From the sequence record OZ335959.1: a DNA stretch of 64,000 nucleotides. One strand, written 5' to 3'. Position 1 is the first letter of the stretch, and each line of letters starts with the position of its first letter. The DNA is from a phage. Under the pieces are notes generated by a model. The model ran no database searches. It had not been told where the DNA came from and saw only the letters and a program-made list of their open reading frames with translations. The position numbers were made by a program, and so were the translations under genes. Positions 6,919-49,637 of the stretch are shown here, one piece after another.

Positions 6919-8139
<1,221 letters not shown>

Positions 8140-45354: not shown

Positions 45355-45627
45355 TTATTTAAAACGGATAGTCGAATCCTTGAAGAATAGACCAGAACAT
45401 ACGGTTCCTTCTACTTTCTGCCCGGTAGGTCCAATAGCACGAAATCCAGTATGTTGGAAATCATTTTCAGAGCAACCGAACCAGTTATATCCAGTGATTT
45501 CAATATTAGTAAAACCACTTGAAGACAAAACTTTGGTTGCATTATCAGCATCAGTACATCCTGCTAAAGACACTGCTAATACTAATGCTGCGATAGAACG
45601 ATTAATATATTTCATAATTTCACTCAA
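45355..45627 (-). CDS. lipoprotein (90 aa)
   Basis: Signal peptide with lipobox LAGC. Confidence 0.55.
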   Translation of the reverse strand: MSEIMKYINRSIAALVLAVSLAGCTDADNATKVLSSSGFTNIEITGYNWFGCSENDFQHTGFRAIGPTGQKVEGTVCSGLFFKDSTIRFK

Positions 45628-45991
45628 ATTTAATGGCTTGAAGAAGACTAATAATTCTCAAGCGACTTCTTTCATCTTTAACCGTAAATGAAAGAGGGTC
45701 ACCAGATTTCATAGTGATAGTGCATTCAAAATCAAAATCTTCGGGAACTTCTTCGAAGAAGTCAAATTCTTCATCATATATTAGAACATTACTCTGAAAA
45801 CTGTGAAGAATTTTTCCATCATTTCCAGATGCTGTACTAATCATTGTAACGTTATTACCTTTCATATCTTCAACGATAAATTCGCTTGTAGATATTACGG
45901 CATTAATAGAACCATTCCTATAAATAGCAGAAAATAGATATTTCTTTTCTTCACCTTCACGAACACGATATTTCTTACCGATTTTAAACAT
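45620..45991 (-). CDS. hypothetical protein (123 aa from ATG; track used GTG at 45997)
   Basis: ORF. Confidence 0.5.
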   Translation of the reverse strand: MFKIGKKYRVREGEEKKYLFSAIYRNGSINAVISTSEFIVEDMKGNNVTMISTASGNDGKILHSFQSNVLIYDEEFDFFEEVPEDFDFECTITMKSGDPLSFTVKDERSRLRIISLLQAIKFE

Positions 45992-45993
45992 AA

Positions 45994-46170
45994 TCACCCT
46001 TTAAGTAAGTCGTAAAATCCACCATTCACATGCTTAGGAGCAGAAGGCCGACGAGTAGACAGACGATGACATTTAGGACAAACATCATTTTCTCGTTCAG
46101 AAATCTTTTTAATTTTTTCATATTCATGCCCGCAATCTTCGGATTGGCATTTATAATCATACATTGGCAT
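45994..46170 (-). CDS. FmdB-like zinc-ribbon protein (58 aa)
   Basis: Hand-translated MPMYDYKCQSEDCGHEYEKIKKISERENDVCPKCHRLSTRRPSAPKHVNGGFYDLLKG; two CxxC pairs; below track cut-off. Confidence 0.45.
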   Translation of the reverse strand: MPMYDYKCQSEDCGHEYEKIKKISERENDVCPKCHRLSTRRPSAPKHVNGGFYDLLKG

Positions 46171-46172
46171 AA

Positions 46173-46592
46173 TTATTCCTTAAAGTGTGCTTTCAACATC
46201 TGATACAAGGACCATGCCTGTTCATTATTTTCAATAGTAACTTTCATGATAGGAAATTCTGTGAAATCTTCTATTTGTTCTTGCTCTTCCTGCTCTTGCT
46301 CTTCAGATGCCTGATATGGATTTTCAACTTCATCAAAGAACCCAGCTTCGTTAGTAGAGAGCCAGATAAAGTTTTCGTCAAGGATATCACCATGTGTTGC
46401 ATATCCAACTGTGCCAGTAGATGTCACAATTTTAGTAGGACGACCAAGATGGTCAACATCTAAAATTTTAAAAGGATGCATACCTAAACGACGTGCATAG
46501 ATTCCGTTATCAGTATGGTCTTTAATAAAATTTTCTTGAGCTTGTTTATTTTTAAATTGATACCATTTATTAACTTCAAATTTAATAGCCAT
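46173..46592 (-). CDS. hypothetical protein (139 aa; position of T4 goF)
   Basis: ORF with acidic EQEQEEQEQ tract. Confidence 0.5.
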
Positions 46593-46807
46593 TAATAAAT
46601 TTCCTTCCAGTAAGTTGTACCGTCTTCAGTGATTTCACGGAATACACCGTAAATTGGCTGTTTATCACCAACATTTTCATACACATAAACCGAAGTCAAG
46701 TGAGTAAACTTAACGGTATGTTCCTTTTGAACTACTACCAAATCTGGATCGAATAATACATCTTCAAATTCGTCATTAGTGCATTTCTGAACAGTTTTAC
46801 GTTTCAT
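46592..46807 (-). CDS. hypothetical protein (71 aa; position of T4 cef)
   Basis: ORF, 1-nt overlap with downstream gene. Confidence 0.5.
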
Positions 46808-46983
46808 TACAATTTCCTCATTAATTGAACATTGGAGCGATGCGTTTCAGAAGAGTGGCAGCACCTTTGGCAAATTTTCCATTTCATTCTCCAAGTTATT
46901 TTCTGTATCAGTAGTTGATATTGATATAGTACCATAATCAACTACTGATGTATATAGTTTTATGAAAAAAAAAAATTTAAACT

Positions 46984-47481
46984 TTATGCACAGCGGGCTT
47001 TGCTATAGTGTTTAATCCAACTTTCGGGAATGACTTTGTATGTTCCTAAAAATACAGCATTGTACAACTTAACACCATCTTCTACCCACTGATCAGTAAT
47101 GTATGCACACATAGCGCGAGTACGGTGTTTTTGAACAACCCCTTCCTCATCTTCAGTAAATTCGAATTCATAAGGAGCAACGAACTTAATAGCTTGACCG
47201 AGTTTCCACTTAAAGTCTACACCTACGTGCGAAGTATCAATCGTTTCAATTCCTTTAGCAGGAACAGCTTTCAAAAACGCAGACTCAAGAAATTTCGCAC
47301 GAACATAGCCAAACTGAGGTTTAGACTTTCCATCTTTAGGAATGATACGCACTTTTACTTCAGAATCTTCATCTTTAACGCCGTGTTTAAGCTGAATGCT
47401 TACAATTTCAACCAATTTTCCTGCTGCTTTAGAACGGGATTTATCAGATACACGAGCAATTTCACCAATATTAATAATCAT
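46984..47481 (-). CDS. hypothetical protein (165 aa; MotB-like by position), paralog of the next ORF
   Basis: C-terminal motif ITDQWVEDGVKLYNAV shared with ORF 47558-48100. Confidence 0.5.
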   Translation of the reverse strand: MIINIGEIARVSDKSRSKAAGKLVEIVSIQLKHGVKDEDSEVKVRIIPKDGKSKPQFGYVRAKFLESAFLKAVPAKGIETIDTSHVGVDFKWKLGQAIKFVAPYEFEFTEDEEGVVQKHRTRAMCAYITDQWVEDGVKLYNAVFLGTYKVIPESWIKHYSKARCA

Positions 47482-47523
47482 AGTTATCTCTCACTTGTTA
47501 AAAAGATTTTATACTCCACGGGA

Positions 47524-47558
47524 CCATTATACTCTGGTCCCAAGAGTTTGTAAACTAT
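47524..47558 (-). promoter_or_regulatory. early promoter module (-35 GTTTAC 47550-47555)
   Basis: Conserved module. Confidence 0.45.
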
Positions 47559-48100
47559 TAATTCAAAATAGCTACCACCGCACTACGGGGTACTACACTA
47601 AAATCACCTGCATGAACAACGTTCAGAAGTTCAACACCATCTTCAATCCATTGGTCTGTTACCCAACCACAGACCGAAATAAATGGGGTCTTAATAGCTA
47701 CAGCACGAGTTAGAAGGTCAGTAGGATCGCATTCTTGGAAGAGGATAAGCTCTGCTTCAAAGACTATAGTTTTAATTACTTCATCATTATCTAAGCGTTG
47801 TGCTCGAATCACATAAGCTTTATTCTTATCATACCAATTACTTTTTGAAAAACTTTTAACCACAAACTCGCCTTCACCAAAAACACTAGTCAATGCTTTA
47901 TAACCCAAACTTAGTTCAGTAGTTTTAATTTCAGTTTCAACCAGTTTGTAGATTTTGCCAATTTCAATGGTCCGAGCAGTCATAAAGGTTTCCTTAATTT
48001 CCAGTGGTTTAACAGGGCATACATAAGTGCTTACAACATCAAAATCAATCAGTTTAGCTACCGGATTTGGAGTGTATTCAGGATTATAATTAAATTTCAT
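47558..48100 (-). CDS. hypothetical protein (180 aa), paralog of the previous ORF
   Basis: C-terminal motif VTDQWIEDGVELLNVV. Confidence 0.5.
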   Translation of the reverse strand: MKFNYNPEYTPNPVAKLIDFDVVSTYVCPVKPLEIKETFMTARTIEIGKIYKLVETEIKTTELSLGYKALTSVFGEGEFVVKSFSKSNWYDKNKAYVIRAQRLDNDEVIKTIVFEAELILFQECDPTDLLTRAVAIKTPFISVCGWVTDQWIEDGVELLNVVHAGDFSVVPRSAVVAILN

Positions 48101-48654
48101 AATTGTCTCATTTCAATAAAATCTACAAGTTCAGCATGGGATTTACGGAACATTACTTGGTGTCCGCCAATGATAACTTCATCTTCAGGAACTTCATAAA
48201 TCGCAATGTACATTCCACGATCTTTTAAGTCTTCACGCTCTTCTCGGGTGAACCATCTCATCATATCATATTCACTAGCGAAAGCAAAATGGTATAATGC
48301 AATAAACCGCGATGGAATATACTTTTCAGACGGTGAATAATTTTTATCCCATTTAGTTTTAATAGCATTATTAGCATTTTCAACTAATAACTTATCATCG
48401 TGTGGAATAGGAATACTTTCATGGCTTTCATAATTATCGCTATGATGATGAAATGACGATGAATTAATACCACAAAATTTTAGCCAAGTTCGAGTTTTCA
48501 TAGAATCAAATCCACGATAAGGAGTTGATTGCACGCATAACTCTTGCCTAATTTTCACTATACCACTATCATCATTTAATGCGCTAAACGATGATTCAAC
48601 ACGATAAATTTTCATTTTATTATCCTCAGTAGCTATGGTGTTATAATACCACAA
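48097..48654 (-). CDS. hypothetical protein (185 aa; possibly shorter from MKIYRVE)
   Basis: ORF. Confidence 0.5.
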   Translation of the reverse strand: MWYYNTIATEDNKMKIYRVESSFSALNDDSGIVKIRQELCVQSTPYRGFDSMKTRTWLKFCGINSSSFHHHSDNYESHESIPIPHDDKLLVENANNAIKTKWDKNYSPSEKYIPSRFIALYHFAFASEYDMMRWFTREEREDLKDRGMYIAIYEVPEDEVIIGGHQVMFRKSHAELVDFIEMRQL

Positions 48655-48675
48655 CTAACCGAGGAAGTAAACAAC
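48638..48675 (-). promoter_or_regulatory. early promoter module (-35 GTTTAC 48667-48672)
   Basis: Conserved module. Confidence 0.45.
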
Positions 48676-48678
48676 TTT

Positions 48679-49362
48679 TTATCGTTTTGTTGGAAGAGAT
48701 AGAGGATCGCACTCTTCCTCTGACGGAGCATCTTCAAGACCCATAGCATACCGCAAAGCATACTTCATCATCAGGATGTCTTTCGCACAGTCATGAATAG
48801 AATCATGCGCAACGAACCCGTCTAAAGTTCCCTTTGGAAGAGGACATGTGGTCATATCACGAACAAGCAGAAGTGCTTCAATTCTGGTGCGAATATCGCG
48901 TTGATTCCAGAATTTACAAGGTTCTAACTTAAACGTATCAAGCTCATTCTCGGAAACGCCATTAAGACGTTGAATATCACGAATGAGATCAACTAAAATA
49001 GGAAAATCAAACGACATTCCACGGCACCAGCCTTGAGATTTCCAAGGATCGATATTATGCGCATTGATGTAATCATTAAATTTTGCAATACCATCGATAG
49101 TGCTTACATCTTCATCTGATGGCGCAATATTTTTTCGAGCTTCAGGAGATTGATTTTTCCACCATTCGATAGTGCTTTTAGTAAAAAGACGATGTCCTTT
49201 TTGGCTTTTTAAATCAAACTTGATTTTAATGCCGCGTGAAACTAATTCATCAAACGTTTCAACTACTTCTGGATTAGGGTCAAAGGCAATAACAGCCAAA
49301 TCAATAACAGCTGCCTTTTCACCGCTTCCCATTGTTTCAAAATCTATAATAAAATCAAACAT
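48679..49362 (-). CDS. dexA: exonuclease A (DEDD-type 3'-5' exonuclease)
   Basis: 227-aa ORF (same length as T4 DexA); N-terminal DFETMG exonuclease motif. Confidence 0.85.
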   Translation of the reverse strand: MFDFIIDFETMGSGEKAAVIDLAVIAFDPNPEVVETFDELVSRGIKIKFDLKSQKGHRLFTKSTIEWWKNQSPEARKNIAPSDEDVSTIDGIAKFNDYINAHNIDPWKSQGWCRGMSFDFPILVDLIRDIQRLNGVSENELDTFKLEPCKFWNQRDIRTRIEALLLVRDMTTCPLPKGTLDGFVAHDSIHDCAKDILMMKYALRYAMGLEDAPSEEECDPLSLPTKR

Positions 49363-49637
49363 TAAATTTTCCTCGCTAAATCGCGAATTTGACCTACAGT
49401 ATAATCTTGGATATAAACTTTATTGATGGGCTCATCAATAAATTTTGTCATAGATTCAATATCTTTTTGTATCTCTTCAAGACTGTATACTATCTTTAAA
49501 GCTTTTTCGCGAATAGTAACATTATCAGGTCCTGGATTTTCTTGAATGACAGCTTTAACATTTGCCATAAGAGATTTAAACTGATGCAAACTTAATTCAA
49601 TCATTAATAACCGCCTTATAAAGATGGCTAATTTCAC
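49362..49637 (-). CDS. hypothetical protein (91 aa)
   Basis: ORF. Confidence 0.45.
   Translation of the reverse strand: MKLAIFIRRLLMIELSLHQFKSLMANVKAVIQENPGPDNVTIREKALKIVYSLEEIQKDIESMTKFIDEPINKVYIQDYTVGQIRDLARKI

What the first reader, a model, noticed from the sequence alone, without database searches (positions are those of the whole stretch)
46984..48100. Tandem paralogous genes sharing a C-terminal TDQW[VI]EDGV motif
Adjacent ORFs of 165 aa and 180 aa end in ITDQWVEDGVKLYNAV and VTDQWIEDGVELLNVV (11 of 16 identical), indicating an old tandem duplication. One is at the position of T4 motB. The shared motif could be a common interaction surface with divergent N-terminal specificity domains.
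Basis: seen in the sequence. Interest (0 to 1): 0.4.

Follow-up and report, generated by a model that had tools for sequence, protein, structure and literature searches.

The report
T4-type motB and motB.1 paralogs
These are the known early genes motB and a motB.1-type neighbour of a T4-like phage, which share one small C-terminal domain but have different N-terminal domains; this relationship was published in 2021, so the finding is correct but ordinary.

Summary
Two minus-strand ORFs (46984-47481, 165 aa; 47558-48100, 180 aa) carry ITDQWVEDGVKLYNAV and VTDQWIEDGVELLNVV (11/16 identical). The motifs lie 22 and 18 residues before the C-termini.

The similarity is far beyond chance: BLASTP E=5e-11, shuffle z=15.5, hhalign 98.7% probability. 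It covers a domain of about 50 residues, and the two AlphaFold2 models have matching secondary structure there (45/50 positions).

- **ORF A** is MotB: Pfam PF17613 E=6.5e-99, 88% identical to T4 MotB, which is a non-specific DNA-binding protein that alters H-NS binding.
- **ORF B** sits at the T4 motB.1 position. It has a disordered but conserved 42-aa tail, an N-terminal domain of the GoF/Frd.2/MotB.1 type, and the MotB-type C-terminal domain.
- **N-terminal domains** are not detectably homologous between the two ORFs.
- **Charge** differs: MotB is basic (pI 9.1), ORF B acidic (pI 4.9).

So this is an old duplication of one domain (50% nucleotide identity) plus N-terminal domain exchange. 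Son et al. 2021 (PMC7827196) already reported exactly this, and Kim et al. 2025 (PMC12152347) described the N-terminal domain family.

By-product: the T4 reference genome has one extra G in motB.1 that truncates the protein to 119 aa. Thirteen other T4-type records encode 143 aa.

The parts
46984..47481 (-). motB gene (165 aa plus stop). NTD is residues 1-68 (47278-47481), the disordered linker is 69-89 (47215-47277), and the CTD is 90-165 (46987-47214).
   Evidence: Pfam PF17613 E=6.5e-99 over residues 1-163. phrog_1671 E=2.2e-76. 88% identical to T4 MotB. AF2 model pLDDT 80.5 with two beta domains and a disordered linker at 70-86.
47053..47100 (-). MotB copy of the shared motif, ITDQWVEDGVKLYNAV (residues 128-143). 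It forms a predicted beta-hairpin of the CTD.
47558..48100 (-). motB.1-type gene, 'ORF B' (180 aa plus stop), at the T4 motB.1 position.
   Evidence: phrog_2333 E=9e-80. The C-terminus hits Pfam motB at 34.2 bits against a cut-off of 25. Close homologues are widespread in T4-like phages: 232 protein hits at E<=0.001. It aligns from residue 40 with full-length T4-type MotB.1. Foldseek hit to T4 MotB.1 P39415 E=4e-6.
47975..48100 (-). ORF B N-terminal tail (residues 1-42). It is predicted disordered but conserved, and carries the peptide LIDFDVVSTYVCPVKPLEIKE.
   Evidence: pLDDT below 50 for residues 1-42. Many invariant positions. The same peptide lies in the interdomain linker of other family members.
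47729..47974 (-). ORF B N-terminal domain (residues 43-124), of the GoF/Frd.2/MotB.1 (LSm-like/SH3-like) type.
   Evidence: AF2 predicts a beta-alpha-beta-beta-beta-alpha-beta pattern with block-mean pLDDT 74-89. hhalign against the 125-aa ORF at 45620-45997 gives probability 93%, E=3.1e-7. There is no blastn match to T4 DNA here, so it is an exchanged cassette.
47561..47728 (-). ORF B C-terminal domain (residues 125-180), homologous to the MotB CTD. It is acidic (pI 4.3).
   Evidence: hhalign probability 98.7%. DSSP states agree at 45/50 aligned positions. Translation. pI.
47615..47662 (-). ORF B copy of the shared motif, VTDQWIEDGVELLNVV (residues 147-162).
47526..47554 (-). Sigma-70-type promoter-like site (TTTACA-17-TATAAT, 11/12 matches) in the 76-bp gap just upstream of motB. 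A hairpin at 47513-47547 overlaps it.
   Evidence: The hairpin folds at -26 kcal/mol, z=-4.8. These are consensus and fold predictions only.
48097..48615 (-). Neighbouring motB.2 homologue, given as context. Its stop codon overlaps the ORF B start (ATGA).
   Evidence: phrog_1106. It begins MKIYRVESSF like T4 MotB.2. Sequence.

Best explanation
The window comes from a Tequatrovirus (a T4/T6-like phage). ORF A is MotB, an early, basic protein built of two beta domains. In T4, MotB binds DNA without sequence specificity, copurifies with H-NS/StpA, changes the H-NS footprint and raises burst size. ORF B is the motB.1-family gene immediately upstream. Both proteins end in the same small five-stranded beta domain of about 50 residues, whose central hairpin is TDQW[VI]EDGV[KE]L[YL]N.V. 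MotB carries an extra beta-hairpin of about 17 residues inside this domain. The N-terminal domains differ: KOW/SH3-like and basic in MotB, GoF/Frd.2/MotB.1-type (LSm-like) and acidic in ORF B, which also has a conserved disordered 42-aa tail. The pair arose by an ancient duplication of the C-terminal module, or of a whole gene, followed by N-terminal domain replacement. The ORF B N-terminal cassette is still being exchanged between phages, with one junction lying inside the motif. Inferred mechanism: the C-terminal domain is a conserved scaffold or partner-docking module, and the N-terminal domain sets the activity. In MotB that activity is DNA coating through its basic surfaces. ORF B has pI 4.9, so it is unlikely to coat DNA and more likely binds RNA or a protein. 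Gene identities, domain homology and age of the duplication are shown here. The docking role of the C-terminal domain and the ligand of ORF B are inferred.
Confidence: 0.75

Rival explanations
1. A whole gene was duplicated, and both N-terminal domains descend from one ancestral small beta-barrel but have diverged beyond sequence recognition. On this reading the two genes are full-length paralogs, not products of domain shuffling.
For: Both N-terminal domains are predicted small beta-barrels. Foldseek aligned the ORF B model over 172 columns of a 163-aa MotB (E=7.9e-6) and over a KOW-domain protein. Family members with a MotB-like KOW N-terminus and a MotB.1-type C-terminus exist.
Against: hhalign reports no N-terminal match, and a shuffle test of the N-terminal parts is not significant. 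The ORF B N-terminal domain is significantly similar to a different family, the GoF/Frd.2-like ORF (E=3e-7). Its predicted strand and helix order differs from the MotB N-terminal domain. The ORF B N-terminal coding region behaves as an exchangeable DNA cassette.
Confidence: 0.2
2. The shared C-terminal domain is the nucleic-acid-binding OB-type domain in both proteins, so ORF B is a second DNA-binding, nucleoid-associated protein acting like MotB.
For: The C-terminal domains are homologous. The published HHpred assignment calls the MotB C-terminal domain an OB-fold. Weak eIF5A/EF-P structural hits appear. Several database records label ORF B homologues 'transcriptional regulator'.
Confidence: 0.15
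3. The shared motif reflects recent gene conversion or recombination between neighbouring genes, or is chance or convergent, and not an old duplication.
For: The two copies lie about 560 bp apart. A 12-nt identical run (GAAGATGGTGTT) is present.
Against: Nucleotide identity over the aligned 114 nt is 50%, third positions match at 14/38, and only 8 of the 16 identical residues use the same codon. Protein-level E-values of 5e-11 and 3.3e-16 exclude chance. Both lineages are separately conserved across many phages.
Confidence: 0.02

Closest known systems
Bacteriophage T4 MotB (Pfam PF17613; Patterson-West et al. 2018, PMC6070864; Son et al. 2021, PMC7827196)
   Same: ORF A is an ortholog. It is 88% identical, matches the Pfam model over its full length, lies at the same position between motB.1 and cef, and has its own promoter-like site. 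It shows the same two-domain layout of KOW-like N-terminal domain, flexible linker and C-terminal beta domain.
   Different: It is three residues longer, and substitutions cluster in the C-terminal hairpin insertion (residues 103-120). Nothing suggests a functional difference.
T4 MotB.1 and the 'Category 2-4' MotB.1-like proteins of Son et al. 2021 (PMC7827196)
   Same: ORF B has a MotB-type C-terminal domain closer to MotB.1 than to MotB (DPTDLL...GWVTDQWIEDGVELLNVVHAG...VVPRSAVVAILN). It lies immediately upstream of motB, its N-terminal domain differs from MotB's, and it aligns with full-length 143-144-aa T4-type MotB.1 from residue 40 onward.
   Different: ORF B carries a conserved 39-42-aa N-terminal extension that T4 MotB.1 lacks. 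Over the aligned columns ORF B is about 45% identical to T4-type MotB.1 as a whole; the most divergent pairs in that alignment fall to 17% in the N-terminal domain. The N-terminal coding DNA has no blastn match to T4. I could not open the paper's Figure S1 or Table S4 to say which category it falls in.
GoF / Frd.2 / MotB.1 'LSm-like fold' N-terminal domain family (Kim et al. 2025, PMC12152347)
   Same: The ORF B N-terminal domain (residues 44-124) matches the N-terminal domain of the window's 125-aa GoF/Frd.2-like ORF (hhalign probability 93%, E=3e-7). It is predicted to be a bent beta-sheet domain with a helix.
   Different: The match to the window's GoF ortholog (139 aa) is not significant with a single sequence (E=0.13). 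No RNA-related activity is known for any wild-type member.
Tandem small beta-barrel proteins: 53BP1 tandem Tudor, Spt5/NusG KOW, eIF5A/EF-P (structural analogues only)
   Different: Sequence identity is 8-16%, so there is no evidence of common descent or of shared ligands. The resemblance is at fold level only.

Membership tests
MotB (Pfam PF17613) | Full-length match to the family model above the curated cut-off | tested here: met
   ORF A scores 328.9 bits against a cut-off of 25, covering residues 1-163 of 165. It is 88% identical to T4 MotB.
MotB (Pfam PF17613) | Genomic position in the dexA ... motB.1 - motB - cef - goF early-gene block | tested here: met
   T4 gene order compared with the window ORFs. 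cef is 46592-46807 (Pfam T4_Cef E=8.6e-35). dexA was identified by blastn colinearity with T4 and by the annotation of the best phage records.
MotB (Pfam PF17613) | Non-specific DNA binding and an effect on H-NS | not testable with these tools
   Known for T4 MotB only (PMC6070864, PMC7827196). ORF A is basic (pI 9.1), which is consistent.
MotB.1-like proteins (Son et al. 2021, categories 2-4) | C-terminal domain homologous to the MotB C-terminal domain | tested here: met
   ORF B: Pfam motB 34.2 bits against cut-off 25 over residues 142-175. hhalign probability 98.7%. 45/50 positions share the DSSP state.
MotB.1-like proteins (Son et al. 2021, categories 2-4) | N-terminal domain different from the MotB KOW-like domain | tested here: met
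   No N-terminal hit in hhalign. The shuffle test is not significant. The predicted secondary-structure order differs.
MotB.1-like proteins (Son et al. 2021, categories 2-4) | Gene immediately upstream of motB on the same strand | tested here: met
   The same arrangement occurs in L004-L006.
GoF/Frd.2/MotB.1 LSm-like N-terminal domain family (Kim et al. 2025) | N-terminal domain homologous to other members | tested here: met
   hhalign against the 125-aa phrog_622 ORF gives E=3.1e-7. MAFFT aligns it with T4-type MotB.1. Foldseek against T4 MotB.1 gives E=4e-6. The match to the GoF ortholog alone is not significant.
GoF/Frd.2/MotB.1 LSm-like N-terminal domain family (Kim et al. 2025) | Five-stranded bent antiparallel sheet (LSm/SH3-like topology) | tested here: inconclusive
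OB-fold nucleic-acid-binding domains (published proposal for the MotB C-terminal domain) | OB topology of the C-terminal domain | tested here: inconclusive

The most novel reading that the evidence does not exclude
The MotB-type C-terminal barrel may be a dedicated docking or reader module. Its invariant acidic and aromatic hairpin face (D-x-W-x-E-D-G) would bind one common basic partner, for example a host nucleoid protein such as H-NS/StpA, or the paralog itself. T4-like phages would then attach interchangeable heads to it: a KOW-like DNA-binding head in MotB, and an LSm-like head plus a conserved disordered peptide in the MotB.1 type. This would direct different activities to the same host target, with ORF B acting as an acidic modulator or antagonist rather than a DNA binder.
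Probability: 0.15. Interest if true: 0.45.

Novelty: already known. Interest (0 to 1): 0.15.

Why it matters
For the window itself the finding matters little. It confirms that two adjacent early genes of a T4-like phage are MotB and a MotB.1-type protein sharing a C-terminal domain, as published in 2021.

Two practical points come out of the check.

1. The 119-aa MotB.1 of the T4 reference genome appears to result from a single extra base. The protein in every other T4-type record examined is 143 aa with a complete MotB-type C-terminal domain. Published heterologous assays used the gene synthesised to the reference sequence (PMC12152347), so they probably tested a protein lacking three of the five C-terminal strands.

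2. The C-terminal domain is the most conserved part of both paralogs even though its net charge is opposite in the two. This argues that its conserved face does something other than bind the DNA backbone, and it gives a concrete target for mutagenesis.

Tried and rejected
- **Solved structures:** sequence searches found nothing useful for either protein.
- **NCBIfam:** no hit for either ORF or for the motB.2 homologue.
- **Distant relatives:** the exhaustive representative search found only 21 proteins at E<=0.001 among 1.84 billion, so the family is confined to T4-like phages and no informative distant relative exists.
- **Third copy:** tblastn of both proteins against the window found no third copy of the C-terminal domain.
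- **Chance or gene conversion:** rejected on E-values and on the codon-level comparison.
- **Full-length paralogy:** not supported by sequence.
- **Internal start:** I tested whether the internal ATG at residue 40 of ORF B has a conserved Shine-Dalgarno sequence. A purine-rich stretch is present in all five loci examined, but it also encodes conserved K/E residues, so the test is uninformative.
- **Terminators:** the terminator scan found none in 46500-49500.
- **Superposition:** model coordinates are not exposed, so I could not superpose the two models. I compared DSSP strings along the hhalign alignment instead.

Full report
**What is there.** The interval holds two minus-strand ORFs, 46984-47481 (165 aa, ORF A) and 47558-48100 (180 aa, ORF B). 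The quoted peptides translate from 47053-47100 (ITDQWVEDGVKLYNAV) and 47615-47662 (VTDQWIEDGVELLNVV) and are 11/16 identical. They are not the extreme C-termini, because 22 and 18 residues follow them. The window is a Tequatrovirus. The 1.8-kb region is 96.6% identical to Escherichia phage ECO78 and 93% identical to T6, and 636 phage records match it.

**More than chance.**
- BLASTP of the two proteins gives 16/32 identical, E=5e-11.
- The local alignment score is 105 against 29.8 +/- 4.9 for 2000 shuffles, z=15.5.
- Profile-profile comparison of the two families gives probability 98.7%, E=3.3e-16. It aligns ORF B 129-178 with MotB 93-159, and MotB carries a hairpin insertion of about 17 residues.
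- The N-terminal halves alone are not significantly similar (264 of 2000 shuffles score as well), and hhalign reports no second hit.

**Identity of the genes.** ORF A matches Pfam motB (PF17613) over its full length (E=6.5e-99) and is 88% identical to T4 MotB. In T4 the order is dexA, motB.2, motB.1, motB, cef, goF. The window is colinear with this, so ORF B sits where motB.1 is.

ORF B belongs to phrog_2333. Its C-terminus passes the Pfam motB cut-off (34.2 bits against 25) and hits the MotB PHROG over residues 125-178. Its relation to T4 MotB.1 rests on four results:
- It shares DPTDLL...GWVTDQWI with T4 MotB.1.
- In a 39-sequence alignment it aligns from residue 40 to the end with full-length 143-144-aa T4-type MotB.1 proteins.
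- Foldseek finds T4 MotB.1 (P39415) at E=4e-6.
- Some GenBank records already call this gene 'motB.-1' or 'transcriptional regulator'.

**Structure predictions.**

| Feature | MotB | ORF B |
|---|---|---|
| Mean pLDDT | 80.5 | 70.8 |
| N-terminal tail | none | residues 1-42, pLDDT below 50 |
| N-terminal domain | five strands, residues 8-67 | residues 50-124, strand-helix-three strands-helix-strand |
| Linker | residues 70-86, disordered | not resolved as a separate segment |
| C-terminal strands | 97-112, 115-134, 137-144, 147-152, 156-159 | 133-137, 142-153, 156-163, 166-171, 175-177 |

**The N-terminal domain of ORF B.** Its profile matches the N-terminal domain of another ORF in the window, 45620-45997 (125 aa, phrog_622, with a weak Pfam FRD2 hit), at probability 93%, E=3.1e-7. 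The match to the window's GoF ortholog (46173-46592) covers the same span but is not significant (E=0.13). This agrees with Kim et al. [quoted passage not shown]

**Evolution.**
- Over the aligned 114 nt the two C-terminal coding regions are 50% identical, third positions match at 14/38, and the longest shared run is 12 nt. The duplication is therefore old and there has been no recent gene conversion.
- The pair 'motB.1-like then motB', both carrying PF17613, recurs in divergent T4-like contigs.
- The exhaustive representative search found only 21 proteins at E<=0.001. They show modular architectures: a MotB-like KOW N-terminus with a MotB.1-type C-terminus, doubled N-terminal domains, and an extra N-terminal domain.
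- DNA similarity between the window and T4 runs at 89% from 45989 to 47670 and resumes at 48115 (86%). The coding region for ORF B residues 1-143 is therefore an exchanged cassette, and one junction lies inside the GWVTDQW codons.
- The C-terminal domain is the most conserved part of both families: 83% mean pairwise identity against 56% for the N-terminal domain in MotB.1-like proteins, and 72% against 59% in MotB.

**How it most likely works.** T4 MotB binds modified and unmodified DNA without sequence specificity, copurifies with H-NS/StpA, alters the H-NS footprint, is toxic when overexpressed and doubles burst size (PMC6070864; PMC7827196). ORF A is expected to do the same, and it is basic (pI 9.1; N-terminal domain 9.75). 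It has a near-consensus sigma-70-type promoter-like site (TTTACA-17-TATAAT) directly upstream.

ORF B is acidic (pI 4.9; C-terminal domain 4.3, with 3 K+R against 7 D+E), so MotB-like DNA coating is unlikely. Its start overlaps the stop of the motB.2 homologue (ATGA), which suggests co-translation with that gene.

My inference is that the C-terminal barrel is a conserved scaffold or partner-docking module and that the N-terminal domains give the specific activity. The invariant D, W and E at positions i, i+2 and i+4 of one strand would lie on one face. That fits a ligand site better than a hydrophobic core, but I could not check it without coordinates. I put about 0.9 on the gene identities and domain history and about 0.35 on the docking role.

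**By-products.**
- *T4 reference frameshift.* The annotated T4 MotB.1 (119 aa) ends GWVTDQWIGRWR*, and the next frame continues EDGVELLNVVHAGEYSVVPRSAVVAILN*. AF158101 and NC_000866 have one extra G (ATTGGAAGATGG against ATTGAAGATGG) at about position 7305. All 13 other near-identical records, which cover T4 isolates, T4T, RB55 and RB59, are one base shorter. MT984581 annotates a 143-aa protein, and that exact protein occurs on 256 contigs. Kim et al. had motB.1 synthesised and report a 13.8 kDa monomer, so they probably assayed the truncated form. Neither 'frameshift' nor 'truncat' occurs in their text.
- *Conserved disordered tail.* The ORF B tail carries a peptide (LIDFDVVSTYVCPVKPLEIKE) that lies in the interdomain linker of other family members.
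- *Possible internal start.* An internal ATG at residue 40 is preceded by AAGGA.

**Verdict.** Interest is low.

Noticed in passing
L001 about 2806 (NC_000866.4 / AF158101.6 about position 7305); compare L003:380-811: The T4 reference sequence has one extra G in motB.1 (ATTGGAAGATGG against ATTGAAGATGG). This truncates the protein to 119 aa (ending ...TDQWIGRWR*), and the rest of the C-terminal domain remains readable in the next frame. Thirteen other near-identical records (T4 isolates, T4T, RB55, RB59) lack the base and encode 143 aa. That 143-aa protein is seen on 256 contigs. Published MotB.1 assays used a gene synthesised to the reference sequence.
   Followed up: yes
window 47975-48100 (-), ORF B residues 1-42: The N-terminal tail is predicted disordered (pLDDT below 50) yet strongly conserved. 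Its peptide (LIDFDVVSTYVCPVKPLEIKE, pattern DxD-hydrophobic-x-S-[MT]-Y..P..P) occurs in the linker just before the C-terminal domain in other family members (P0246, P0248, P0249, P0253, P0256). It behaves like a short linear motif whose position moves.
   Followed up: partly
window 47981-47995 (-): An internal ATG (ORF B Met40, invariant in the family) is preceded by AAGGA at a 7-nt spacing. Starting there would give a 141-aa protein colinear with T4 MotB.1. Purine-rich sequence upstream of this ATG is present in 5 of 5 loci, but it also encodes conserved K/E residues, so this is undecided.
   Followed up: partly
window 47670/47671 and 48114/48115: DNA similarity to T4 (86-89%) is interrupted exactly over ORF B codons 1-143. 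One junction lies inside the codons of the GWVTDQW motif, so the conserved C-terminal coding DNA appears to serve as a recombination boundary for swapping N-terminal cassettes.
   Followed up: partly
window 45620-45997 (-): This 125-aa ORF (phrog_622, weak Pfam FRD2 hit) has no blastn match in the T4 stretch compared here (window 45618-45988 has no hit). Its N-terminal domain is homologous to the ORF B N-terminal domain (hhalign E=3e-7). It is a further GoF/Frd.2-type paralog next to the GoF ortholog at 46173-46592.
   Followed up: partly
P0254 (43 aa): The sequence is MKIYRVESSFSILDYEDGVELLNVVHAGDFSVVPRSAVVAILN. The N-terminus of MotB.2 is fused in frame to the last 28 residues of the MotB.1-type C-terminal domain. 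This looks like a deletion derivative that removed most of motB.2 and motB.1. It recalls the 29-aa RB69 peptide mentioned by Son et al. 2021.
   Followed up: no
window 47513-47547 (-) and 46907-46949 (-): Two stable hairpins on the transcribed strand. One overlaps the -10 element of the motB promoter-like site (-26 kcal/mol for the 88-nt stretch, z=-4.8). The other lies just downstream of the motB stop after a run of 11 T (-20.5 kcal/mol for the 96-nt stretch, z=-4.7). Neither fits the simple terminator pattern scanned.
   Followed up: partly
window 48097-48654 (-): The mechanical ORF for the motB.2 homologue starts at a TTG (185 aa). Comparison with T4 MotB.2 (MKIYRVESSF...) puts the real start at the ATG at 48615 (172 aa). 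Its stop overlaps the ORF B start codon (ATGA).
   Followed up: partly
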